Shown here: one piece after another, positions 7,496-18,633 of the stretch
How the letters are laid out: the number at the start of each line of letters is the position of its first letter
Position numbering within the stretch: the stretch's first letter is position 1
Source of the DNA: Actinomycetota bacterium
Lineage (GTDB): Bacteria > Actinomycetota > Thermoleophilia > BMS3ABIN01
Length of the DNA stretch: 64,000 bases
NCBI GenBank assembly: GCA_023382335.1
Contig: JAMCPM010000006.1
Span: forward strand, 70,372-134,371
Direction of reading: 5' to 3'
Notes under the pieces: model-generated
Seen by the model: only the letters and a program-made list of their open reading frames with translations
Database searches by the model: none
What the model was told of the DNA's origin: nothing
Made by a program: the position numbers and the translations under genes

Positions 7496-7571
<76 letters not shown>

Positions 7572-7606
7572 AGATTTACTTCCTGCTATAACAGGATTCC
7601 ATCAAA

Positions 7607-7641
7607 AAAGGCCACCTTTTGAAGCGGCCTTTTTTCATTTT
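7607..7641 (+). terminator. putative intrinsic terminator after tRNA-Lys
   Basis: aaaaaaGGCCaccttttgaagcGGCCtttttt: a GC stem flanked by an A-run and a T-run, just 3' of the tRNA. Confidence 0.4.
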
Positions 7642-7918
7642 TACACACACCTTTACACCCACCGGGAAACAAAATCCCCTCATTTCAGCTAAAAAGAATC
7701 CCTTCATATAATCCCTTTTACAGTGTTTGATTCTTTCCTGCGCTGATTGTAGCGGCATCGATATAGTCTGGAGCCCTTCGCCGAGCGCGGGATGGGCTTC
7801 CAGGAATTTGCGGAGTCCCTCCTGATCTAACGCCCTTAGCTACGTCAGAGTTTGGCGGAGCTCATCTGCCTTCTTCAACAGAACCTTGATAGGCGCTGTC
7901 ACTCTTCGATCAAGAATC

Positions 7919-9574
7919 TTAGTTAGAGTTTGTTGTGTCAGTACTTGCCAGGTGCTCGTCGCAATAACTATCATAATGTGAAAGATCGTAAACCTTTTTG
8001 TCTGAATCATAGTATCTAAGCTCGGCATTGTTAATCTTGCCGTTTCCCGCAATGACTACATATCGGAACCCATAGCTACAAAGTGCATCATAATTGCCTG
8101 CCTGAAAAGCTTTTTCGATCCCTTCATCTTGCCAAGCGACGCTGCCTGGTCTGCGTGAAATATAGCCGCCGAATATGGGATGGCCATGAATTAGTTGATA
8201 GTTCAACAGCTTATCGGTGGTATCATCAAAAACCGCGCCAGGAGGCATATTCTTTATCGCGTATGCATATGCTGGCTGCTCGGGAATGATCGGCCGCAAT
8301 GGCTGGGCCGGCATGTATTCGAAGACAACCAGCAATATGGTTGCACCAACAACCAGCCGTTTCTTTTTTATTTGGGAGTCCCATATACGCGCCAGCGACA
8401 TGGCGCTGATCATCGACGCGGCCAGGATGACCACGGCCATCATCCGGTTGGGCATGCCGCCAATATTGGCAATCGGCAGAACCGATTGTAGAAGCGAATA
8501 AGGTAAGGGGAGACTTATCTCATAATTCACGATATGTAAAATCGGCCCCAGGCTTAGCAAAAGAAAGAAGAAAAGGATAAAAAGCCACGCCGTGAAGAAA
8601 TCCTTGGCTGGCAACTTCTTGCGATTGATAATTGCAAAGATTATGAGACCCCAGACGCTGATCCCTATGAAACTTTGACCAAGGCCTTCCCCGAAGTGCA
8701 ACTGCTGGCTAAACCAGTCGTTCAGCGGGCCAGGAATTATAAAGCTTATCAGTTCGGTAGAAAAGACTTCCGGTATGTGTAAGTCGACGAAACCGCCTGC
8801 CTTAAAAGCACGCGACAATGCCAATAGAAAAGGGGAGATTGCGGCAACCGAAATTGTTAAGAAAATTCCGAACGAAACCAGATGTCTGATTGTAGCGAAG
8901 TACTCCGGCTTTTTCTTGATCATTACAGCAATCAGGAAAATGAATGCCAGCAGAGCGGCATAGAAAGCATAATATAGTTCTGAATAAAAAGTGAGGATGA
9001 GAAAGAGCGCAGCAATTGATGCAGTTGTGATACGTGGTCGTATTAGCATTTTGTGCCAGAAAAGCAAAAACAACGGTAGCCATTCGAGAGAAGTCAAGTT
9101 GATATGGCTGCCAAGGTGCAGAACCGAATATCCGGAAAAGGCATAGATAAAACCGGCCAGAATGCTCGGCCAGTAGTTCTCGCAAAAATAATAAGCAAGC
9201 AAAAAAGCGCTTAAGCCACTGGCGACTACTGATATAACCACAAGAATATTGTATGAAGTGAAGGGAGAGAAGAATGACTCTAAAAAAACCCCGGGAATTG
9301 AATTCACAAGACTTAAAGTATGCGCCAGCAACGAAGTCCCTTCCGGGAAATGAATCATTGAAGAAAAATACGGATTTTGCAGATTTACAATCGATTGGCG
9401 CACATGCCATATATTCCAGACGTTTTGCATGCCATCCACTTCGTCGCCGAAGAAGCGTGATGGAAGTTCCAGGATTGCAGGAAAAGAAAGAATACAAAAA
9501 CATGCGAAGTATACAAATGCGGGGAAAACGCCAAACTTAATAAAACGTGCCTTAGACAGCTTCGCTAGATTCAT
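7919..9574 (-). CDS. large polytopic membrane protein, GT-C-fold/YfhO-like (putative membrane glycosyltransferase), in AT-rich islet
   Basis: 551 aa with more than 10 predicted TM helices, an FGDEVDG acidic motif in the first extracytoplasmic loop, and a C-terminal soluble domain. Codon usage is strongly AT-biased, unlike the flanking genes. Confidence 0.6.
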   Translation of the reverse strand: MNLAKLSKARFIKFGVFPAFVYFACFCILSFPAILELPSRFFGDEVDGMQNVWNIWHVRQSIVNLQNPYFSSMIHFPEGTSLLAHTLSLVNSIPGVFLESFFSPFTSYNILVVISVVASGLSAFLLAYYFCENYWPSILAGFIYAFSGYSVLHLGSHINLTSLEWLPLFLLFWHKMLIRPRITTASIAALFLILTFYSELYYAFYAALLAFIFLIAVMIKKKPEYFATIRHLVSFGIFLTISVAAISPFLLALSRAFKAGGFVDLHIPEVFSTELISFIIPGPLNDWFSQQLHFGEGLGQSFIGISVWGLIIFAIINRKKLPAKDFFTAWLFILFFFLLLSLGPILHIVNYEISLPLPYSLLQSVLPIANIGGMPNRMMAVVILAASMISAMSLARIWDSQIKKKRLVVGATILLVVFEYMPAQPLRPIIPEQPAYAYAIKNMPPGAVFDDTTDKLLNYQLIHGHPIFGGYISRRPGSVAWQDEGIEKAFQAGNYDALCSYGFRYVVIAGNGKINNAELRYYDSDKKVYDLSHYDSYCDEHLASTDTTNSN

Positions 9575-9606
9575 CTTATCATTCCGCGGTTACAAGCAAT
9601 TCAGGA

Positions 9607-9831
9607 TTATACTGCCCGGAGAAAGCAAAAATCCAAGCAGCAATACTTTTTAATTAAGAAAACAAAAAAAGATTCGTGGCGGGAATAAATGGTCTCATCG
9701 GTTTCCAGAATCACTGAAAGTACGCTCAATAAAATGAGAGTAACGATAGAGACATTGAAAATTTTTCCAGGCAGGTCCTCAGATTTAAAATCTAAGATCT
9801 CGAATACGATGCTATGCACTTTTTTTCGCAT
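9607..9831 (-). CDS. hypothetical small protein (AT-rich islet)
   Basis: 74-aa ORF with a hydrophobic stretch, in the AT-rich segment between the lipoprotein gene and the membrane protein gene. Supported by the ORF call only. Confidence 0.25.
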   Translation of the reverse strand: MRKKVHSIVFEILDFKSEDLPGKIFNVSIVTLILLSVLSVILETDETIYSRHESFFVFLIKKYCCLDFCFLRAV

Positions 9832-9837
9832 CAGGAT

Positions 9838-10422
9838 CTATTCTCGTTCGATCGAATAGATTGGATGTAATTCATTCCAGCCATGCTCCGCATCCAAAAC
9901 ATAGTCGCCTAACACTTTGACACGATCTCCTGCTTTTGGTGTAAGAATTGGATAGGTAAAGCCCCTACACGCATCTTTTGCGTCCTCTTGCGTAATATTG
10001 TTCTGGCAAACCGGCTCGAGCACCAAATCGCCATGCTGACCGTCAACGTTCTTTTGGTTCAACATGCCTGAATACTGTGAGTCTAAAGTTAGACGGATGT
10101 GATAATCACCATCCGCTTCCTTCTTTACTGCTGCGACTGTCCCGGTGACCGTTTTGCAATTCTCAATCCTGTGAAGGCGTTGAGGGTTGTACACATGGTT
10201 CCAAAGACTTTCGTCGCACTCACTGGAACTGGGAGATGTTGCAGTGACTGACAATGGTGGTGTGATTGCGCCGGTCGTGGAAGCAAGTGGCGCCATACCC
10301 TGATCAGATTTAAGTGTCGAGGAGCCTGATTCAGCGCAGCCTATGATTAGAACAACAGCAAAAGGCAGAATTAGAAAGATTCTCCGGAAAGAAAGTAGGA
10401 ACACAATTCCGATCCTGGCCAA
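9838..10422 (-). CDS. hypothetical secreted lipoprotein (Cys-rich, unknown function), AT-rich islet
   Basis: N-terminal signal peptide with a lipobox (LIIGC), Ser/Thr-rich linker and several conserved Cys. No recognisable domain. Confidence 0.55.
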   Translation of the reverse strand: MARIGIVFLLSFRRIFLILPFAVVLIIGCAESGSSTLKSDQGMAPLASTTGAITPPLSVTATSPSSSECDESLWNHVYNPQRLHRIENCKTVTGTVAAVKKEADGDYHIRLTLDSQYSGMLNQKNVDGQHGDLVLEPVCQNNITQEDAKDACRGFTYPILTPKAGDRVKVLGDYVLDAEHGWNELHPIYSIERE

Positions 10423-10605
10423 TTTTGATAGGAAGATTATTTTAACGCCTGATCGCAGTCATGTATATAGATAGACCCAGACGGAAAAGGCCGCCTGGAG
10501 GGCGGCCCAATAGTTGCAATCAACTTCACATCAAGTCAGGCAGGGGCCAAAGACTCACGAAAGCGATCAGAGTCCACACAGTTCGTCAGGCGTACCAGCT
10601 CCCTC

Positions 10606-12240
10606 CTAGAACCAGTGCCGCAGCCACCACTTCTCGAAAGCTACCTTGCCCCAGTGCGCGGGATGCGTCGGCGGGTATAACCGCACCGCCGGCTCGGGTT
10701 CCGCGTAGAAGTTGCCCGCGGCAAATCCGGCCTTGCCGCCGCCAAGCTCCAGCCAGCAGTAGCCGTGGCCCTCGAATGTCGCCTCCGGCGTCTTGCCTTC
10801 GATCTCGGCGACGATCCTGTCGGCTACGACCCCGGCTTCAGAGTGGGCGAAGACGCCCGCCATGGGAAGATTCTTGCCGTTCGCCAGCCGGATATTGTTG
10901 ACGTCGCCGATGGCGTATACGCCCTCGTGCTCGGTCTGAAGCGTATTCGCGTCTACATGTATCCACCCGGAGGAGCCGAGCAGGCCGGAGTAACCCACAA
11001 CCTCGGGCGCCCGGTGAGGAGGAACGGCCAGGAGCAGGTCGACCTCCTGGGGATCACCGCTGGATTGAGTGATGGTGTGGTCGCCGGGGCTTATCCACTC
11101 GAAGGTGAACAGCGGATGGTAGCCGATGCCGCGCTTCTTGAGCACTTTTGATATGGCGTCGCCCATCGCCGCTCCTGCTATGGGCATTGGCTGATGCTCG
11201 GGAGTATAGATATCAACCTTCGACCTTTCCCGCACACCCTTTTTCCGCAGGAAGGAATCCACCAGAAGCGCAGCTTCGTACGGCGCCGCCGGGCATTTGA
11301 AAGGCATGTCGGTGACAAGCACTCCGACCTTGCCGCCGGAAAAATCGTCCAGGGCGGCCTGTATCCTTGCCGTTCCTTCCAGGTCGTAGAGGTTGAGGGC
11401 CATCTCATCAAAACCCAACACTTCCTGCGGAGCCAGCTCCGCCCCCAGCGCCACTATCAGGAAGTCAAAATCGACTTCCTGCGACGGGGTTCTCACCAGC
11501 TTGCGGTCCATATCTATCTGCACCGCCGGCTCGTTGATGAACTCGACTCCCTTTTTAACCAGGTCCGACAGTGGACGCTGGATCTGCTCGGCGCTGCGCA
11601 GGCCGACCGCGCGCCAGAGCAGCGATGACTGGAAGAGGTGATTGGGTTCGCGGTCCATGACGATGATCCGATGGCCCTTGGGAAGCTTCTTGCGCAGGTG
11701 ATAGGCAGCCACCAGGCCGCCGGCCCCTCCACCGAGGATGAGGATGTTGGCGCCCCATGCCCGCCCGGAGCGCCGCGGTGCTGCCTGGGGCGCAGGCTTC
11801 GCTTCGCCCGGCGCCACCGGCTCCTCGTATATTTTTTCTACCGCGGCCGTGAAGCCGGCCTCGTTAAACTCGCTCTCCCACAAGATCACCTTGCCGTCGG
11901 GACCTACGAGAATAGAGTATGGCACCCAACCATTGCTGAGCTGCTTGAACAGCGTTCCGTCTTCGTCGGGGATAACGTCGAAAGGAAGACCGTACTCTTC
12001 CTTCCATTGATCGCAGGCTTCCTTCGTTTCATACGGGCCCACGTAAACGGCCGAGAATCCTTTGGAGGAGAAGCGCTCATACAGGCGCTTTACAGCGGGG
12101 GCCTCCCGCCTGCAACCCTGTCACTGCCCTTTCCAGAAAACGATGAGCAACCCCTTGTCGGGAGCAGGCAGACCCAGCTCCTGTAAAGCGATAGCCTGCC
12201 CTTCGGAAACGCCTTTTTGGCCTTCATCGATGACTTTCAT
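10606..12240 (-). CDS. candidate selenoprotein: TlpA/ResA-like thioredoxin domain (UxxC redox motif, TGA at 12121-12123) fused to sulfide:quinone oxidoreductase (SQR)-type flavoprotein
   Basis: ATG at 12240 with RBS AGGGGA. The frame reads MKVIDEGQKGVSEGQAIALQELGLPAPDKGLLIVFWKGQ-TGA-QGCRREAPAVKRLYERFSSKGFSAVYV.... This aligns to the TlpA/ResA motif FWASWCGPCRAEAP, with the TGA exactly at the first Cys. The frame then continues without interruption into the 478-aa ORF (GGGAGGLVAAYHL FAD-binding site, SQR catalytic Cys in FKCPAAPYE and GYCWLE). A stem-loop lies 6-31 nt downstream of the TGA (+ coordinates 12090-12115). Confidence 0.65.
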
Positions 12241-12291
12241 TCGATCCCCTTTCCGTAATGCCAGGTCGCGGTCCTGGCCATGAATTCGTGT

Positions 12292-12648
12292 TTAATGCTT
12301 CCTGTCCCCAGGGTATTTCCCCGTCTTCGTCACCGGGCAGCACGCCGGCGCTTCCAGGTCTCCCTCGTATAGTTTCCTTAAGAGTTTCAGGAGGTCCGGC
12401 ACGATCGGATCGACCAGGAAGTAGCAGCGCAGGCGGCCGTCCACGTAATAATCGATCAAGCCGTTCCTTCGGAGCATCCCCAGGTGCTGGGAGATATTCG
12501 GTTGACTTGCCTCCAGAAGCTCGTCAAAGTCGCTGACGCACCTGACGCCGTCCTCGAGCTGCTCGAGGATCTGGATCCTCAAAGGATGCCCCATTATCTT
12601 GAGCAGCTCGATCCGGTCGCGCTCGATATTTTTCGCTTTTGGTTTCAT
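12292..12648 (-). CDS. ArsR/SmtB-family HTH transcriptional regulator, SqrR/BigR-like (candidate persulfide sensor)
   Basis: HTH region HPLRIQILEQLEDGVRCVSDFDELLEASQPNISQHLGMLRRNGLI. Cys37 in helix alpha2 and C-terminal Cys103/104 (ACCPV) match the positions of the reactive Cys pair in SqrR/BigR. It sits directly upstream of the SQR-fusion gene on the same strand. Confidence 0.85.
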   Translation of the reverse strand: MKPKAKNIERDRIELLKIMGHPLRIQILEQLEDGVRCVSDFDELLEASQPNISQHLGMLRRNGLIDYYVDGRLRCYFLVDPIVPDLLKLLRKLYEGDLEAPACCPVTKTGKYPGDRKH

Positions 12649-12670
12649 CCCTCAGCTCCGTCAGCCGGAA

Positions 12671-12702
12671 ATATATAATGACATTATTACATGATTATAT
12701 AT
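12671..12702. promoter_or_regulatory. AT-rich imperfect inverted repeat (candidate ArsR-family operator / promoter) upstream of the regulator gene
   Basis: ATATATAATGACAT-TATTA-CATGATTATATAT, 23 nt upstream of the regulator ATG (minus strand). It also contains TATAAT-like hexamers. Confidence 0.35.
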
Positions 12703-12845
12703 CGTGTCAAGTCATGGATGCGCATCGTGGAATCGAAGCCCCGGCAAAAGGCCAAAGCCCCGGCCAAAGGCGATCCGGCCGGGGCGTAATTGGCAAGCTT
12801 GGGAGTAACTGACAAAGAAAGAAGAACAGGAAAAGCCCGGGGGGG

Positions 12846-13046
12846 CTATCCCTCCTCCTTGTCGTTCCATTGCCATTCTATATCTGCCCACCGCTCCCCT
12901 GAATCTTGCCGTGGCTCCCGAGAATCGTTCCTGACCGGCTCCTGCCTCTTCATCCTGGCGATAGAACCGGTAATGATGCAGATAACCGCGGTCATCACAT
13001 AGATGCCGATGGAAACCCCCGTGATCGGTAACATGGCCCCGTACAT
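12846..13046 (-). CDS. small membrane protein with LPxTG-like motif + TM + basic tail (paralog of 23831..23950)
   Basis: MYGAMLPITGVSIGIYVMTAVICIITGSIARMKRQEP.... A strong RBS (AGGGAAGGGG) precedes the ATG. It shares about half its residues with the mini-ORF at 23831. Confidence 0.45.
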   Translation of the reverse strand: MYGAMLPITGVSIGIYVMTAVICIITGSIARMKRQEPVRNDSREPRQDSGERWADIEWQWNDKEEG

Positions 13047-13168
13047 GATTACCCCTTCCCTCGAAACATTATCAATTTAGCTGTATCCGGAATATTCCAA
13101 TCCAAACTTCCCCGGACGATCCGGAGCCGGATAGGGTGGTAAATCCGAATATTGGGTATTAGAAAATC

Positions 13169-15229
13169 ATGGAACTGGACCGATTGTGCATCACCACCAT
13201 CCGGATGCTGGCCCTGGACGCCGTCGAGTGGGCAAACTCCGGCCACCCCGGCCTGCCGCTGGGCGCGGCGCCGTCAGCCTATGTTCTCTGGAGCCGATTT
13301 CTAAAATTTAATCCGTCCGACCCCTTCTGGCCCGACCGCGACCGCTTTGTCCTCTCCGCAGGGCATGGCTCCGCGCTGCTTTACGCCATGCTGCACCTGA
13401 CCGGCTACAAACTCTCGCTCAAGGAACTAAAGAACTTCCGCCAGTGGGGCAGCAAGACCCCGGGCCACCCCGAATACACGCCGGAAAATGGAATCGAGAC
13501 AACCACGGGCCCGCTGGGCCAGGGCTTCGCCGCCGGAGTAGGCATGGCCATGGCCGAGCGCCATCTTGCGGCCATCTTCAATCACGAAGAGCATCAAATC
13601 GTCGACCACCGCACCTACGCGATCGTCAGCGACGGCGATCTCATGGAAGGTATCAGCAGCGAGGCCGCTTCGCTGGCCGGCCACCTTGCCCTCGGAAAGC
13701 TCATATATATCTATGATAACAACCACATCTCACTCGCCGCCGACACGCGGCTGACATTCACCGAGGATGTTCGCAAACGTTTCCAAGCCTATGGATGGCA
13801 GGTCATCGATGTCGATGACGCCAACGACACCGCCAAGATTGAAAAAGCACTGACAAAGGCGCGCGATAACGAGCGCCAGCCCTCGCTGGTCATGATCGCC
13901 TCACACATTGGGTACGGCAGCCCCAAACAGGATACATTCGAGGTCCATGGCAGCCCCCTGAGCGCCGAAGATACCGCCGCTACGAAAGAATTCTACGGCT
14001 GGCCGCAGGAGCCCGCCTTCTTCATCCCCGGGGAAGTCCAGGCCCACATGAAAGAACCGGGTCAAAAAGGCAAGCTGCGCCAGGCGCAGTGGACTTCCAA
14101 TCTGGCTTCATATGGCGACAAGAATCCCGGGCTGATGAAACAATGGGACCTGATGATGAACGGCAAGCTTCCCAGAGGCTGGGACAAAGACATCCCTGTC
14201 TTCGAAGCCGGAACCGAGATCGCAACCAGAAAGGCTGCCGGCCAGGTGCTGAACGCCATCGCCGCCCGCGTTCCCTCGATCGTAGGCGGCTCGGCTGACC
14301 TCGACCCATCGACCAACACCGCTATCAAGGGTAAGGGTAGTTATCAACCACCCGGCACCGGTGACGATAGCATCCAGGGGGCGGTTCCGGGAGTCTGGGG
14401 CTACGCGGGCGCCAACATCGCCTACGGGGTGCGAGAACATGCCATGGCCGGCATAACCAGCGGGCTGGCGGTCCACGGCGGCCTGAGGCCCTTTGCCGCC
14501 ACCTTCTTCATCTTTTCCGATTACATGCGTCCGGCGATGCGCCTGGCGGCGATGATGAAGCTGCCCGCCATCTACGTATTTACTCACGATTCCGTCGGAC
14601 TGGGCCAGGACGGCCCCACCCATGAACCTGTCGAGCACCTGGCTTCCTTCAGAGCCATGCCCGGCATGACGGTGATCCGTCCATCCGACGCCAACGAGGC
14701 CGCCGAAGCCTGGCGTCTGACGCTCAAACGCAAAAGCGGCCCCATCGCGCTCATCCTGACCCGTCAGGGGCTGCCGGTCCTGGATCGCGGCAAATACGCA
14801 GCCGCCAGCGGCCTTGCCCGCGGCGCCTACATTCTCGCCGACACCTCTCCCGCCCATGGAGTTCCCGACCTGATCATAATCGCCACCGGCTCCGAAGTGC
14901 ATGTCGCCCTGGAGGCGTACGAAAGGCTGGCGAAAGAGGGCGACTGGGTCAGGCTCGTATCGATGCCCTCCTGGGAAATATTCGAGGAGCAGGATGTCGA
15001 CTACCGGCAGGAGGTCCTGCCTCCCGCCGTGACCCGGCGGCTGTCGGTCGAAGCCGGCGCCAGCCTCGGATGGCAGAAATACGTCGGCGACTCCGGCGAC
15101 ATCATCTCCATCGATCGCTTCGGGGCCTCGGCGCCTGGCGCCACGGTTCTGGAAAAATTGGGTATCTCTGCAGAAAACGTCTACGCGCATGCCCGAGCGC
15201 TGCTGAAAGACATAAAAGTAAAATCTTAG
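13169..15229 (+). CDS. tkt: transketolase
   Basis: [12 protein letters not shown]...[16 protein letters not shown] is the TPP-binding region; GEDGPTHEP appears as GQDGPTHEP. 686 aa. Confidence 0.95.
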
Positions 15230-15241
15230 GAGGAAAAGATA

Positions 15242-16393
15242 ATGAGCGAAAACGCGAATCCAATGCTGGCTCTGGAACAAATCGGACAGAGCGTCTGGAT
15301 CGATTATCTCAGCCGCGATCTGATCGAATCCGGCAGGCTGAAAAAACTGATGGACGAAGATGGCGTCAAGGGGGTCACTTCCAATCCAACGATCTTTCAA
15401 AAAGCGATCTCGGGAAGCAGGCTCTATGACGCATCGCTCCAGAAAACGGTGGCCGACGGCATCCTTGATGACAGGGAGATATTCCTGCGGCTGGAGATCG
15501 AGGACATCGTCGCCGCGGCCGACCTGCTGAGGCCCAAGTACGATGCCTCCGGGGGATGGGACGGTTTCGTCAGTATCGAGACCTCGCCCGATCTCGCCTA
15601 TGACGTCGACGCCACCATCAGGGAAGTAATGCGCCTCGCGGGCGCCGTCGGCCGTGAGAATGTCTTGATCAAGGTGCCGGCCACGGAAGCTGGACCGGCG
15701 GCCATCGAGCAGTTGGTCAGCGAGGGCTTCAACATCAACGTCACACTGCTCTTTTCCGTCTTCCGCTACCGGCAGGTCGTGGAAGCCTACATGAGCGGTC
15801 TGGAAAAGCGTCTGCACCGCGGCGATCCCATCGATGGGATCATGTCTGTGGCGAGCTTCTTTGTCAGCCGCGTTGATACTCTGGTGGACAATTGCTTAAA
15901 TAGCATGGCTGATGACGCCGAATCCACCCAGGAGCAGGAAACTCTTAAAGGCCTTATGGGCCTGGCGGCGGTAGCCAACGCCAGGCTCGCTTACCAGGAC
16001 TACAAGAAGATCTGCTCCAGCGACCGCTTCCAGAGGCTGGAAGCCGCCGGCGCCAACAAGCAGCGCCTGCTCTGGGCCAGCTCCAGCACCAAGAACCCGG
16101 AATACAGCGACATCAAGTACATCGAGGAACTGATCGCCCCGGAGACAATCAACACGATGACCGAGGACACCATCGAGGCCTTCCGCGATCACGGCCAGGT
16201 CCGCATCTCCATAGAGGACCACCTCGATGAGGCGCACGGCATCTTTGACCGTCTGGGCGATCTCGGCATCCAGGCCAGGCTCGTCGGCGAACAGCTCGAG
16301 AAAGAAGGCGTTAAAGCTTTTTCCGATTCCTTCCACAACCTGCTTGACGAGATCGATGACAGAAAAAAGCAAATACTCAACGAAGCCGCGTGA
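15242..16393 (+). CDS. tal: transaldolase (long actinobacterial/cyanobacterial-type)
   Basis: GVTSNPTIF motif, and the active-site Lys region IKVPATEAG. Confidence 0.9.
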   Translation: MSENANPMLALEQIGQSVWIDYLSRDLIESGRLKKLMDEDGVKGVTSNPTIFQKAISGSRLYDASLQKTVADGILDDREIFLRLEIEDIVAAADLLRPKYDASGGWDGFVSIETSPDLAYDVDATIREVMRLAGAVGRENVLIKVPATEAGPAAIEQLVSEGFNINVTLLFSVFRYRQVVEAYMSGLEKRLHRGDPIDGIMSVASFFVSRVDTLVDNCLNSMADDAESTQEQETLKGLMGLAAVANARLAYQDYKKICSSDRFQRLEAAGANKQRLLWASSSTKNPEYSDIKYIEELIAPETINTMTEDTIEAFRDHGQVRISIEDHLDEAHGIFDRLGDLGIQARLVGEQLEKEGVKAFSDSFHNLLDEIDDRKKQILNEAA

Positions 16394-16426
16394 GCAGATC
16401 ACGAATCTTGCTAGGCAGGCATCGCC

Positions 16427-17089
16427 ATGAGACTTGGTTTCGTCGGACTGGGAAAGATGGGCGGCAACATTGTCCAGAGGCTGCTGGAAGATGGTCACGA
16501 GATCGTAGCCCATGACCCCGACGCGCAAGCACTGAAACCGGCCGCCGCACGGGGAGCAATAGCAGTGGGGAACCTGGAATCCCTGGCCGCAACTCTGCAA
16601 GCGCCGCGCCTGGTCTGGCTCATGGTCCCTTCCGGACACGTTGCCGGGCAGGCGATCGCCGGACTCCAGCCACATCTCGAATCCGGCGACGTCATCGTCG
16701 ATGGCGGCAATTCTTACTACCGGGAGGTCGAAGGCTATGCTGAAGGATTCGAGCTGCTCCATTCCAAAACTGAATTCGATCTCGACCTGAAACAGGTCTC
16801 GGAGCTATGGACGCACGGCAGCGTCATCAGGTCCTGGCTGCTGGACCTGGCGATACTGGCATTCGGGCAGGACCCCAGCCTGGAGTCCATCGAGGGTTAC
16901 GTCGACGACACCGGCGAGGGACGCTGGACCGCCATCGAGTCGATCGAGTCGGCGATCCCGGCCCCGGCGCTCGTCCTCTCGCTGCAGCAAAGGTTCCGAT
17001 CGCGTCAGCAGAGTTCCTTTGCCGCCAGATTCATCGCCGCCGAAAGACAGCAGTTCGGCGGCCACGCGGTGAGAAAAAAGGGGAGCTGA
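16427..17089 (+). CDS. 6-phosphogluconate dehydrogenase (YqeC-type, NAD-binding) homolog with in-frame internal deletion; probable pseudogene/remnant
   Basis: N-terminal Rossmann domain MRLGFVGLGKMGGNIVQRL...VIVDGGNSYY joins directly to the C-terminal ...AEGFELL...GSVIRSWLLDL segment. The central substrate and catalytic region (the VKMVHNGIEYG block, about 90-110 aa) is missing. Confidence 0.5.
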   Translation: MRLGFVGLGKMGGNIVQRLLEDGHEIVAHDPDAQALKPAAARGAIAVGNLESLAATLQAPRLVWLMVPSGHVAGQAIAGLQPHLESGDVIVDGGNSYYREVEGYAEGFELLHSKTEFDLDLKQVSELWTHGSVIRSWLLDLAILAFGQDPSLESIEGYVDDTGEGRWTAIESIESAIPAPALVLSLQQRFRSRQQSSFAARFIAAERQQFGGHAVRKKGS

Positions 17090-17094
17090 GCCTC

Positions 17095-18633
17095 ATGGAC
17101 GATGTACAGCAGGCCACCGACGCACCCCCGATCCAGACGCAATACTGCGAGATCCCTCTGAAGCAGTACACCATGGAACCATTCGCGATGATGATCTTCG
17201 GCGGCGCCGGCGACCTCAGCCAGAACATGCTCATGCCAGCCTTGTATCACCTCTACCTCGACGGCGAGCTGCCAAAAGATTTCTTTGTTGCCGGCGCCGG
17301 CCTGCCAGCCATGTCCGATGAGGAATACCGCAACCTCATGTCGGAGGCCATGAAACGCAACGAGGAAAAATTAGACCAGAAGAAGTGGACGGAATTTAAG
17401 GAGCGTCTCTACTACATTTCCGGCGATTTCTCGAATAATGAAACCTATGAACAGCTTCGCGTCCTTGCGACCGAACTGGGAAAAAAATGCGGCAACAACA
17501 TCATTTACTATCTCGCCGTGGCTCCTTCATTCACCGAACAGGTCGTGAAGAAGCTCAAAGAGTTCAACCTTTGCCGTGGCGCTTTCAGGACCAAGCTTAT
17601 CCTGGAAAAACCATTCGGCCGCGACCACGCTTCAGCGGTCGAATTGAACACTGTGCTTCTGGAGGCTTTTGACGAGAGGCAGATCTACCGCATAGACCAT
17701 TATCTCGGCAAGGAGACCGTACAAAACATAACCTTTTTCCGCTTCTCCAACACTATCTTCGAAGAGCTCTGGAATCAGCATCACATCGACAACGTCCAGA
17801 TCACCGTGGCCGAATCTGAGGGCATCCGCCACCGCGGCGAGTTTTACGAAGGGACCGGCGTCGTGCGCGATATCGTCCAGAACCACTTGCTGCAACTGGT
17901 TTCTCTCATAGCCATGGAGCCACCGGCTTCGTTTGAGGCCGAGTCCCTGCGGGATGAGAAGGTGAAGGTGCTTCGCTCCATGGTCCCACTCGACCCCGAA
18001 GACGTGGATCGAAATTGCGTCCGGGGCCAGTTCGGGCCGGGTTTGCTCGATGGCAAAAAACTCAAAGGCTACAGGCAATCGGAAGGGATTCGCGAGGACT
18101 CCGTCACGCCGACCTTTTTCGCCGGGAAATTCCTGATCGCCAACTGGCGCTGGGCCGGGGTCCCGTTTTACGTGCGCACGGGAAAGAGGATGCCCAGACG
18201 CACAACCGAGATAGTGATCCAGTTCAAGCAGCCACCGCTTAAACTCTTTGACGCCAACTGCAACCAGCTTGAGCCCAACCTGCTGGTGCTAAAGATCCAG
18301 CCGGACGAAGATATCTTCCTGCGCTTCGGAGTCAAATATCCTTTCTCACCAAATCAGATCCATCCTGTCAAATTGGAGTTCAGCTCCCAGCGGACGTTCC
18401 ATGCCGAGCCACACCCGGTATACGAGAAGTTGCTGGTCGACTGCATGGAGGGAGATCCGACCCTGTTTGTCAGGCAGGATGCCGTACTGGCAATGTGGGA
18501 CGCCGTCGATCCCATCAACAAACGCTGGGAAGTAAAAAGGCCGGCTTTCCCCAACTACGAGTCCGGCACCTGGGGTCCTCCCGAGGCCGATCATCTGCTC
18601 GAGCGTGACGGCAGGCGCTGGCTCTCAGTCTGA
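17095..18633 (+). CDS. zwf: glucose-6-phosphate 1-dehydrogenase
   Basis: GGAGDL...P (GxxGDLA NADP site), RIDHYLGKE active site and Zwf C-terminal domain; 512 aa. ATG at 17095 has an AAGGGGAG RBS. The longer 16807 ORF is an upstream read-through over gnd and is rejected. Confidence 0.9.
   Translation: MDDVQQATDAPPIQTQYCEIPLKQYTMEPFAMMIFGGAGDLSQNMLMPALYHLYLDGELPKDFFVAGAGLPAMSDEEYRNLMSEAMKRNEEKLDQKKWTEFKERLYYISGDFSNNETYEQLRVLATELGKKCGNNIIYYLAVAPSFTEQVVKKLKEFNLCRGAFRTKLILEKPFGRDHASAVELNTVLLEAFDERQIYRIDHYLGKETVQNITFFRFSNTIFEELWNQHHIDNVQITVAESEGIRHRGEFYEGTGVVRDIVQNHLLQLVSLIAMEPPASFEAESLRDEKVKVLRSMVPLDPEDVDRNCVRGQFGPGLLDGKKLKGYRQSEGIREDSVTPTFFAGKFLIANWRWAGVPFYVRTGKRMPRRTTEIVIQFKQPPLKLFDANCNQLEPNLLVLKIQPDEDIFLRFGVKYPFSPNQIHPVKLEFSSQRTFHAEPHPVYEKLLVDCMEGDPTLFVRQDAVLAMWDAVDPINKRWEVKRPAFPNYESGTWGPPEADHLLERDGRRWLSV

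What the first reader, a model, noticed from the sequence alone, without database searches (positions are those of the whole stretch)
12292..12720. SqrR/BigR-like ArsR regulator and AT-rich inverted repeat upstream of the SQR selenoprotein gene
The 118-aa ArsR-family protein has a Cys in helix alpha2 (VRCVSDF) and a C-terminal Cys pair (ACCPV). These are the positions of the persulfide-reactive Cys pair in SqrR/BigR, which repress sqr operons. A 32-bp AT-rich imperfect palindrome (ATATATAATGACAT-TATTA-CATGATTATATAT) sits 23 nt upstream of its start. This contrasts sharply with the about 62% GC background and is a plausible operator/promoter. Together with the downstream gene, this forms a compact sulfide-responsive detoxification module.
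Basis: partly seen in the sequence, partly recalled or inferred. Interest (0 to 1): 0.6.

Follow-up and report, generated by a model that had tools for sequence, protein, structure and literature searches.

The report
Cysteine-rich ArsR repressor with conserved operator
A small DNA-binding repressor and its palindromic binding site sit in front of a selenium-containing sulfide-oxidase-like gene; both are real and conserved across bacterial phyla, but the protein is not a SqrR/BigR sulfide sensor, it belongs to an undescribed cysteine-rich branch whose operons carry sulfur/selenium-handling genes, including selD in 19 of 81 loci.

Summary
Window 12292-12648 (-) encodes a 118-aa ArsR/SmtB protein. 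A 32-bp AT-rich palindrome (12671-12702) lies 22 nt upstream and overlaps a near-consensus promoter. It is the only such site in the 64-kb window.

Cys37 is not in helix alpha2. It sits at the N-cap of alpha3, the position of E. coli ArsR Cys32. The residues that align with the SqrR/BigR/HlyU/YgaV sensing cysteines are Glu29 and residues 95-98. The protein scores 37.7 bits against the BigR model, whose cut-off is 155.

It belongs to a tight, unnamed ArsR subfamily (60-96% identity) found in Actinomycetota, Nitrospirota and Chloroflexota. Four cysteines are invariant or nearly so: C37, C75, C103, C104 (tail PACCPVTKKGKYPG). In 78 of 81 loci it heads operons of DsrE-family carriers, SQR-like flavoproteins, TauE or SelD. 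In 65 of 81 the operon holds selD or a selenoprotein gene. The palindromic operator, centred on the -10, is conserved (59 of 80 loci against 10 of 3499 control windows).

Best reading: an autoregulated, thiol-based repressor that responds to reactive sulfur or selenium species. Which of the two is unresolved. It is a new variant of a known kind.

The parts
12292..12648 (-). Gene for a 118-aa ArsR/SmtB-family repressor. Family-conserved cysteines are C37, C75, C103 and C104 (C103 is nearly invariant). The tail motif is PACCPVTK(T)GKYPG.
   Evidence: ORF. Pfam HTH_5 and NCBIfam NF033788 above cut-off. More than 500 homologues at 60-96% identity. Conserved cysteines in A1 and A2. AF2 model with pLDDT 83 and the ArsR fold.
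12671..12702 (.). 32-bp AT-rich palindromic operator. The perfect 9-nt outer arms are at 12671-12679 and 12694-12702. 12 of 16 symmetric positions are complementary.
   Evidence: It scores 23.1 bits with the family-wide position weight matrix and is the only hit in the window apart from a 2-nt-shifted overlap. The same 32-bp frame is conserved upstream of homologues.
12705..12710 (-). -35 hexamer TTGACA of the regulator's promoter.
   Evidence: TTGAC is present upstream of the homologue in 65 or more of 81 loci.
12683..12688 (-). -10 hexamer AATAAT, preceded by TG. It lies at the centre of the palindrome.
   Evidence: In homologous promoters TAATAT/AATAAT occupies the palindrome centre.
12656..12659 (-). 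GGAG ribosome-binding site, 7 nt before the ATG.
   Evidence: Read from the sequence.
10606..12240 (-). Downstream gene, 51 nt after the regulator's stop codon. It is a fusion of an AhpC/TSA (thioredoxin-fold) domain and an SQR-like flavoprotein. It is the probable target of repression.
   Evidence: Translation. Pfam AhpC-TSA, Pyr_redox_2 and FCSD_central. Best solved relatives are human and bacterial SQR, and both catalytic Cys are conserved. No terminator was predicted between the two genes. The same gene pair occurs in L001-L005 and L007.
12121..12123 (-). In-frame TGA read as selenocysteine in the redox motif FWKGQ-U-QGC (UxxC).
   Evidence: The TGA is conserved at the same codon in all 6 orthologous fusions.
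12094..12110 (-). SECIS-like hairpin GGCGGG-AGGCC-CCCGCU, beginning 11 nt after the UGA.
   Evidence: Centroid fold. Conserved in 6 orthologues, with a compensatory G-C to A-U change in L004.

Best explanation
The gene encodes an autoregulated ArsR-family repressor.

DNA binding and repression. As a dimer, or a pair of dimers, the protein binds the 32-bp palindrome. The palindrome spans the promoter spacer, the -10 hexamer (at the palindrome centre) and the probable transcription start. Binding would therefore exclude RNA polymerase. The repressed unit is a two-gene operon: the regulator itself and the selenocysteine-containing thioredoxin-fold/SQR-like flavoprotein.

Proposed induction (inferred). 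The conserved cysteines are chemically modified. C37 is at the N-cap of alpha3 and C75 is in strand beta2; general winged-helix topology suggests they are neighbours. C103 and C104 lie in the flexible C-terminal tail. A reactive sulfur or selenium species (persulfide/polysulfide, or a selenide/selenotrisulfide-type species) would cross-link the tail to the DNA-binding core. This would lower DNA affinity.

What is shown: the fold, the conserved cysteines, the conserved operator overlapping the promoter, and the regulon content.
What is inferred: repression, the identity of the effector, and the cross-link chemistry.

The logic is the same as for SqrR/BigR/CstR, but the sensing site is different. 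The protein is not a SqrR/BigR orthologue.
For: Family and fold. ArsR family and fold. Cysteines C37, C75 and C104 are invariant and C103 nearly invariant in 90 homologues from several phyla. In more distant relatives, P0131 and P0137 lose C37, C75 and the CC pair together.

Operator.
- The site overlaps a promoter matching 11 of 12 consensus positions.
- It is unique in the window.
- The 32-bp palindrome follows TTGACA in 65 loci, with a mean of 11.2 of 16 complementary pairs against 8.0 (sd 1.3) in shuffles.
- A PWM site of at least 19 bits lies within 160 nt upstream of the regulator in 59 of 80 loci, against 10 of 3499 control windows.

Regulon.
- 78 of 81 loci carry DsrE-family, SQR-like, TauE, SelD or rhodanese genes downstream on the same strand.
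- The six closest operons have the same regulator-fusion pair as the window.
Against: - No experiment supports it: binding, repression and the effector are all untested.
- The model is a monomer and I had no coordinates, so I could not measure how close C37, C75, C103 and C104 are.
- The tail is only moderately confident (pLDDT 64-74).
- The window's palindrome is imperfect in its inner half and differs there from the Nitrospirota consensus (ATATATKCAAATAT), although the recognition helix SQPNISQHL is invariant.
- The PWM was built from the same sites it then scored. The window's own site was one of the 44.
- The gene content does not separate sulfur from selenium as the signal.
Confidence: 0.6

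Rival explanations
1. One reading: a SqrR/BigR orthologue that senses persulfide through the same alpha2/alpha5 cysteine pair and represses an sqr operon.
For: SqrR, HlyU and BigR are among the nearest solved folds and sequence hits. The downstream gene is SQR-like. MAFFT can force the YgaV/HlyU C-terminal Cys onto C104 by opening a 9-residue gap.
Against: The alpha2 Cys position is Glu29. C37 aligns with a Ser of SqrR and with ArsR Cys32. The alpha5 Cys position is Glu95 to Leu98. The BigR equivalog scores 37.7 bits against a cut-off of 155. The window repeat has no ATTC-N8-GAAT box. M. smegmatis SmtB and Rv0081 are equally close relatives.
Confidence: 0.04
2. A selenium-responsive repressor. 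The cysteine cluster captures a selenium species, and the family controls selenium assimilation and trafficking genes (selD, Sec-DsrE/F/H, NifS-like, TauE, methyltransferases).
For: - A selD equivalog (352 bits against a cut-off of 125) lies in the regulator's operon in 19 of 81 loci and is the first named gene downstream in 11.
- 65 of 81 operons hold selD or a selenoprotein gene.
- Sec-DsrE/F/H and selD share one operon in L061, L072 and L077. L077 also has a NifS-like gene.
- The same operator precedes the selD-type operons.
- Vicinal Cys plus further thiols suit selenotrisulfide chemistry (general knowledge).
Against: - The window's own operon has no selD, and no selD or tRNA-Sec lies in the 64 kb.
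- Sec in thiol-redox proteins is common in these lineages, so the operon's selenoprotein genes may be incidental.
- The Aquicultor-type operons use Cys versions (c17, CGTC motif).
- DsrE, SQR, TauE and rhodanese are equally typical of sulfur regulons.
- No published precedent was found.
Confidence: 0.25
3. A metal or metalloid sensor (As(III)/Sb(III), Cd/Pb/Hg-type thiolate site) that uses C37 plus the vicinal C103/C104, with or without C75.
For: C37 is the position of ArsR Cys32 in ELCVCDL. A vicinal Cys pair plus a third Cys is the pattern of the alternative As(III) sites in A. ferrooxidans and C. glutamicum ArsR (from memory, not tested here). NCBIfam gives weak hits to CmtR and TsoR.
Against: Only one of the three alpha3 cysteines of canonical ArsR is present (CVSDF against CVCDLC). 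No ars or metal-efflux genes occur in the operons. Separate ArsR-SBF(Acr3-like) pairs exist next to this family in L057 and L069.
Confidence: 0.08
4. The cysteines are structural (for example a Zn or Fe-S site) or form a general redox/disulfide switch, with no sulfur- or selenium-specific effector.
For: Four conserved cysteines could ligate a metal or a cluster. HlyU-type relatives respond to oxidants (abstract of PMC10509353).
Against: The regulon is thematically narrow (sulfur/selenium carriers) rather than a general oxidative-stress set. CC-Pro motifs are unusual cluster ligands (general knowledge).
Confidence: 0.05

Closest known systems
SqrR (Rhodobacter capsulatus) / BigR (Xylella, Acinetobacter) / YgaV / HlyU: dithiol persulfide-sensing ArsR-family regulators
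   Same: ArsR fold. Cysteine-based sensing with no obvious metal site. A repressor gene next to sulfide-handling genes (SQR-like, TauE, rhodanese, DsrE-type). An operator overlapping the promoter. Among the nearest solved structures.
   Different: The sensing cysteines are elsewhere: Glu29 and residues 95-98 occupy the SqrR C41/C107 positions, while C37, C75, C103 and C104 are conserved instead. The score is far below the BigR model cut-off. The operator is a 32-bp AT-rich palindrome, not ATTC-N8-GAAT. The operons often include selD and selenoprotein genes.
Canonical As(III)-responsive ArsR (E. coli / R773)
   Same: Same family. C37 aligns with Cys32 at the start of alpha3. The gene is autoregulated and first in its operon.
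   Different: It lacks Cys34 and Cys37 of the ELCVCDLC site. It has extra conserved cysteines in beta2 and in a C-terminal tail. It has no arsB/acr3/arsC partners.
CstR (CsoR-family persulfide sensor) and sHdrR/SoxR (ArsR-type sulfane-sulfur repressors of Hyphomicrobium)
   Same: Functional analogy: thiol-based repressors that release DNA after persulfide/polysulfide cross-linking and control sulfur-oxidation or detoxification genes (abstracts listed).
   Different: CstR has a different fold. From memory, sHdrR and SoxR carry the SqrR-type cysteine pair, which is absent here. This was not tested.
LysR_Se / HrsM (proposed selenium-related regulators)
   Same: Regulator genes found next to selD and Sec-machinery genes by comparative genomics (PMC5322559).
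   Different: They belong to an unrelated protein family (LysR). That survey did not report an ArsR-type regulator (0 occurrences of ArsR).

Membership tests
ArsR/SmtB transcription factor family | Winged helix-turn-helix of the HTH_5 type; alpha1-alpha2-alpha3-alpha4-beta1-beta2-alpha5 fold | tested here: met
   Pfam HTH_5 48.5 bits (cut-off 22). NF033788 70.4 bits (cut-off 55). AF2 secondary structure matches the fold. Foldseek top hits are HlyU, SmtB and SqrR, with TM-score 0.65-0.69 normalised to the query and 0.78-0.85 normalised to the target.
SqrR/BigR persulfide sensors | Cysteine in helix alpha2 (SqrR C41, BigR C42, YgaV C31) | tested here: not met
   The window has Glu29 at this position (ILEQL against MIMCYL/ILCML). 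Glu29 is nearly invariant in the subfamily.
SqrR/BigR persulfide sensors | Cysteine at the C-terminal end of alpha5 (SqrR C107, BigR C108, YgaV C98) | tested here: not met
   Pairwise alignments put Glu95 (YgaV/HlyU) or about Leu98 (SqrR) at this position. C103/C104 lie 5-9 residues further on, in a coil. Only a forced 9-residue gap aligns them.
SqrR/BigR persulfide sensors | Score above the curated BigR equivalog model cut-off (NF040642) | tested here: not met
   37.7 bits against a cut-off of 155.
SqrR/BigR persulfide sensors | Operator of the sqr-box type (ATTC-N8-GAAT) | tested here: not met
   The window repeat ATATATAATGACATTATTACATGATTATATAT has no such box (box as given in the paper read). 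The Nitrospirota consensus has ATTC...GAAT, but 16 nt apart.
SqrR/BigR persulfide sensors | Formation of a di- to tetrasulfide cross-link with persulfide donors and loss of DNA binding | not testable with these tools
   Needs purified protein, mass spectrometry and binding assays.
Canonical As(III)-sensing ArsR (alpha3 site) | Three cysteines in ELCVCDLC (Cys32, Cys34, Cys37) | tested here: not met
   Only the first is present: RCVSDFD against LCVCDLC.
Sulfide:quinone oxidoreductase family (downstream gene) | FAD-binding GxGxxG fold plus the two catalytic cysteines | tested here: met
   Best solved relatives are human SQOR (E 2.6e-31) and bacterial SQRs. FKCPAAPYE aligns with PVKCAGAPQE, and GYCWLE aligns with YTSCPL offset by one residue.
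Type III SQR, selenoprotein subtype (NF049943) | Score above the curated cut-off; Sec within the SQR domain | tested here: not met
   234 bits against a cut-off of 525. The UGA lies in the N-terminal thioredoxin-fold domain, not in the flavoprotein domain.
Bacterial selenoprotein (downstream gene) | Conserved in-frame UGA at a redox-motif position with a hairpin immediately downstream | tested here: met
   UGA in the UxxC motif at the same codon in 7 of 7 sequences. The hairpin starts 11 nt downstream and shows one compensatory change. Actual Sec insertion is not testable here.

The most novel reading that the evidence does not exclude
This tightly conserved ArsR subfamily (C37/C75/CC tail) is a bacterial selenium-responsive repressor. 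It would sense a reactive selenium species through its cysteine cluster. It would control selenophosphate synthetase (selD) together with a Sec-DsrE/F/H carrier set, SQR-like flavoproteins, TauE permeases and methyltransferases. That set would amount to a dedicated selenium uptake, relay and detoxification regulon. The window's Sec-thioredoxin/SQR-like fusion would be the Actinomycetota version.
Probability: 0.25. Interest if true: 0.85.

Novelty: new variant of a known kind. Interest (0 to 1): 0.6.

Why it matters
Thiol-based sensors of reactive sulfur species are known from only a few scaffolds and cysteine geometries: SqrR/BigR, CstR, FisR and OxyR. Here a different, strictly conserved four-cysteine arrangement appears on the ArsR scaffold. 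It comes with a well-defined operator and a coherent regulon in several phyla, most of them uncultured.

That gives a directly testable new sensor. It also gives a handle on what the poorly understood Sec-DsrE/F/H, SQR-like and TauE operons do. If the signal turns out to be selenium, this would be a bacterial transcription factor governing selD. In the literature I searched, how bacteria sense selenium is described as unresolved (PMC5322559). The palindrome plus repressor could also serve as a compact biosensor part.

Tried and rejected
1. A selenocysteine variant of the sensing Cys37. Representatives P0125 and P0141 start exactly after residue 37. The contig L083 shows a 1-base frameshift with the TGT codon intact, so this is an assembly artefact.
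2. Rfam scan of 9500-13500. Only a sub-threshold chance hit appeared (P15, 20 bits against 70).
3. Further operator copies in the window. None were found, so no wider local regulon can be read from the window.
4. selD, DsrE, TauE or tRNA-Sec in the window. None were found.
5. Literature search for an ArsR-selD or ArsR-DsrE-selenoprotein link. Nothing was found; one search failed on syntax.
6. An intrinsic terminator or a strong structure between the regulator and the fusion gene. Only a weak 6-bp hairpin without a U-tract is present, with a z-score of -0.18.
7. Folding energy of the 63 nt after the UGA is not exceptional (z-score -0.16). The SECIS argument therefore rests on conservation, not on energy.
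8. Symmetry measured by anchoring on TTGACA alone gave only a blurred peak, because the spacing varies by 1-3 nt. Choosing the centre locus by locus was needed.
9. L078 has four PWM hits next to unrelated genes (glycosyltransferase, cytochrome c). I treated these as AT-rich background or an outlier.

Full report
**1. What is in the sequence**

The minus strand of window 12292-12648 encodes a 118-aa protein. It matches Pfam HTH_5 (E 8e-13). It also passes NCBI's ArsR/SmtB subfamily model (70.4 bits, cut-off 55).

The element ATATATAATGACATTATTACATGATTATATAT lies 22 nt upstream of the ATG, at 12671-12702.
- Its 9-nt outer arms are perfectly complementary.
- It is 12.5% GC in a 58.8% GC window.
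- Allowing three mismatches it is the only match in 64 kb, and none of 100 shuffles gave a match.
- On the gene's strand the region reads TTGACA-16 nt-TG-AATAAT, which matches 11 of 12 promoter positions.
- One arm lies in the promoter spacer, the -10 is at the palindrome centre, and the other arm covers the probable start site.

A 12-bp GC hairpin with a U-rich tail at 12757-12785 (-) probably terminates the small upstream ORF. It would isolate this promoter.

**2. The downstream gene**

A 544-codon gene (10606-12240, -) starts 51 nt after the regulator's stop codon. No predicted terminator lies between them.
- It fuses an AhpC/TSA thioredoxin-fold domain to a Pyr_redox_2/FCSD-type flavoprotein.
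- The nearest solved relatives of the flavoprotein are human and bacterial sulfide:quinone oxidoreductases. Both catalytic cysteines are conserved.
- An in-frame TGA (12121-12123) sits in FWKGQ-U-QGC, a UxxC redox motif.
- All six orthologous fusions keep TGA at that codon. They also keep a hairpin that starts 11 nt downstream, with one compensatory G-C to A-U change.

The gene is therefore a selenoprotein. The Sec lies in the thioredoxin-fold domain, and the protein does not reach NCBI's 'type III SQR selenoprotein' cut-off (234 bits against 525).

**3. Are the cysteines those of SqrR/BigR? No**

SqrR senses persulfide through C41 in alpha2 and C107 in alpha5 (bioRxiv 10.1101/2020.03.22.001966). 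I recovered the SqrR, HlyU and YgaV sequences from PDB alignments and from E. coli K-12.

Direct pairwise alignments give the following.
- SqrR MIMCYL, YgaV ILCML and HlyU ILCML align with window ILEQL, so Glu29 occupies the alpha2 Cys position.
- Window C37 aligns with a Ser of SqrR. It also aligns with Cys32, the first Cys of ELCVCDL, in E. coli ArsR.
- The C-terminal Cys of YgaV and HlyU follows the conserved Tyr, where the window has Glu95. For SqrR the equivalent is about Leu98. The CC pair is 5-9 residues further on.
- MAFFT can bring the C-terminal cysteines together only by opening a 9-residue gap.

An AlphaFold2 model (pLDDT 83) places alpha2 at 22-32, alpha3 at 38-44, beta2 at 73-78 and alpha5 at 82-91, with a coil tail from 92. 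So C37 is at the N-cap of alpha3, C75 is in beta2, and C103/C104 are in the tail. The BigR equivalog model scores 37.7 bits against a cut-off of 155. Foldseek puts HlyU, M. smegmatis SmtB, SqrR and Rv0081 equally close.

**4. What family is it?**

More than 500 homologues share 60-96% identity over the full length. They come from Thermoleophilia and other Actinomycetota, Candidatus Aquicultor, Anaerolineae, and Nitrospirota/Thermodesulfovibrionia. None carries a specific name.
- In 24 sequences C37, C75, C103 and C104 are invariant. In 90 sequences C103 drops to nearly invariant. The tail PACCPVTKKGKYPG and the recognition helix SQPNISQHL are conserved.
- In a library clustered at 50% identity, the family collapses to essentially one full-length representative (205 bits; the next scores 164 bits). 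It is a tight, sharply bounded subfamily.
- More distant relatives usually keep C37 and C75 and often a CC. Two of them (P0131, P0137) have lost all four cysteines together, which hints that the cysteines work as a unit.

In winged-helix proteins the short strand before the HTH pairs with the last wing strand. DSSP marks residues 36-37 as strand. C37 and C75 are therefore probably neighbours. This is an inference; I had no coordinates.

**5. Genomic context**

A scan of one genome per species returned 80 loci. I clustered their ORFs and annotated them with Pfam and NCBIfam. The regulator is the first gene of several variable operon types.
- (a) Actinomycetota, including the window: regulator, sometimes a DrsE_2 protein, then the Sec-thioredoxin/SQR-like fusion.
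- (b) About 40 Nitrospirota loci: regulator, a DsrE-like selenoprotein (KVYL-U-GGC), DsrF- and DsrH-like genes and an SQR-like flavoprotein. These are often followed by a second ArsR paralogue, DrsE_2, and MMPL and LolA-like genes.
- (c) Regulator, selD (itself with Sec; equivalog at 352 bits), then TauE.
- (d) Aquicultor: regulator, DsrE-like (CGTC motif), TauE and DrsE_2.

Counts:

| Feature downstream on the same strand | Loci (of 81) |
|---|---|
| At least one DsrE-family, SQR-like, TauE, SelD or rhodanese gene | 78 |
| selD anywhere in the operon | 19 |
| selD as the first named downstream gene | 11 |
| selD or a selenoprotein gene | 65 |

Sec-DsrE/F/H and selD share one operon in L061, L072 and L077. 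L077 also has a NifS-like gene. No ars or metal-efflux genes belong to these operons. Separate ArsR-SBF(Acr3-like) pairs sit nearby in L057 and L069.

**6. Is the operator conserved? Yes**

- Upstream of the homologues, 65 of 81 loci have TTGAC followed by a tract of at least 70% AT.
- Within that tract, a 32-bp palindrome is centred 21.5-26.5 nt after the start of the -35. It has a mean of 11.2 of 16 complementary pairs, against 8.0 (sd 1.3) in composition-matched shuffles.
- The pooled half-site is ATATAT(G/T)CAAATAT(A/T)A. The -10 (TAATAT/AATAAT) is at the centre.
- The window's element fits the same 32-bp frame (12 of 16 pairs). It aligns with the promoters of the six closest operons.
- A matrix built from these sites finds a site of at least 19 bits within 160 nt upstream of the regulator in 59 of 80 loci (67 of 80 within 900 nt). 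Only 10 of 3499 control windows in the same loci have one. This test is partly circular.
- The window's site scores 23.1 bits and is the only hit in the window apart from a 2-nt-shifted overlap.
- Extra sites lie just upstream of the MMPL genes in several loci.
- The SqrR box ATTC-N8-GAAT is not present in the window.

**7. Mechanism**

Shown:
- an ArsR-fold protein with a conserved cysteine set;
- a conserved palindrome over its own promoter;
- a conserved, thematically narrow set of downstream genes.

Inferred:
- The protein represses its operon by occluding the -10 and start site.
- It is released when its cysteines are modified.

The regulon points to reactive sulfur (persulfide/polysulfide) or reactive selenium as the signal, and I cannot separate the two. 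Selenium is favoured by selD, NifS-like, methyltransferase and DedA/TehA-like genes. Sulfur is favoured by the window's own operon lacking selD and by analogy with known regulons. Metalloid sensing is less likely: only one of ArsR's three alpha3 cysteines is present, and no resistance genes are attached.

**8. Comparison and novelty**

Functionally the protein resembles SqrR/BigR/CstR, which are thiol-based repressors of sulfide-handling genes. It fails every sequence-level membership test for SqrR/BigR and for canonical ArsR. I found no paper describing this subfamily or an ArsR-type regulator next to selD. The comparative-genomics survey of selenium genes proposes a LysR-type regulator and does not mention ArsR (PMC5322559). 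I rate it a new variant of a known kind, with interest 0.6.

**9. Dead ends**

- A suspected Sec-for-Cys37 variant was a frameshift artefact.
- Rfam gave nothing.
- No second operator, selD or tRNA-Sec lies in the window.
- The folding energy after the UGA is unremarkable on its own.

Noticed in passing
window 10606-12240 (-), UGA at 12121-12123, hairpin 12094-12110: The downstream gene fuses an AhpC/TSA thioredoxin-fold domain carrying a UxxC selenocysteine motif to an SQR-like flavoprotein. The UGA and the hairpin after it are conserved in six Actinomycetota orthologues. The gene does not reach NCBI's 'type III SQR selenoprotein' model, so it appears to be a distinct selenoprotein architecture.
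   Followed up: partly
L014:6362-6712; also L061, L072, L077: Nitrospirota operons encode a DsrE-like selenoprotein (KVYL-U-GGC) with DsrF- and DsrH-like partners. In some loci these share an operon with selD and a NifS-like gene. This suggests a DsrEFH-type relay that handles selenium rather than, or as well as, sulfur.
   Followed up: partly
L017:9293, L021:8534, L033:9521, L035:9661, L068:9175: Second copies of the palindromic operator lie just upstream of the MMPL (RND-like) and LolA-like genes at the distal end of the Nitrospirota clusters. These genes are probably part of the same regulon.
   Followed up: partly
L016:8945-9250, L033:8712-9083, L055:5580-5912: Many clusters carry a second, different ArsR paralogue. 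The downstream type has an alpha2 Cys (EILCLL), like SqrR, and in L016 its ATG overlaps the stop codon of the SQR-like gene (ATGA). There may therefore be two layers of regulation.
   Followed up: no
window 12757-12785 (-): A 12-bp GC-rich hairpin followed by a U-rich tract, flanked by a 17-nt direct repeat (12736-12752 and 12755-12771). It is probably the terminator of the small 66-aa ORF at 12846-13046 (-) and would insulate the regulator's promoter.
   Followed up: partly
window about 7500-10500: GC content drops to 0.39-0.55 over 10000-10600 (the profile was run only from 10000), against 0.59 for the whole window. tRNA-Lys (7497-7572) lies about 2.4 kb away. The region between holds a 551-aa multi-pass membrane protein gene and a 194-aa putative lipoprotein gene with no Pfam match. 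It may be an acquired island.
   Followed up: no
window 13169-18633 (+): The first ORF matches transketolase by its sequence motifs. The next ORFs resemble transaldolase, a 6-phosphogluconate-dehydrogenase-like protein and glucose-6-phosphate dehydrogenase. This would be a pentose-phosphate gene cluster, transcribed divergently from the regulator region and apparently unrelated to it. I identified these by eye from the translations, not by a family search.
   Followed up: no
L083:2900-3351: A long-read metagenome contig carries the same regulator-selD-TauE arrangement, but a 1-base frameshift inside the regulator makes the database protein (P0125) start at residue 38. Such truncated entries could be mistaken for Sec-containing variants.
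   Followed up: yes
L015:5345-5851: In one Nitrospira locus a ThiS/MoaD-like carrier protein with a C-terminal GG lies between the operator and the regulator gene. It is another sulfur/selenium carrier type in the regulon.
   Followed up: no
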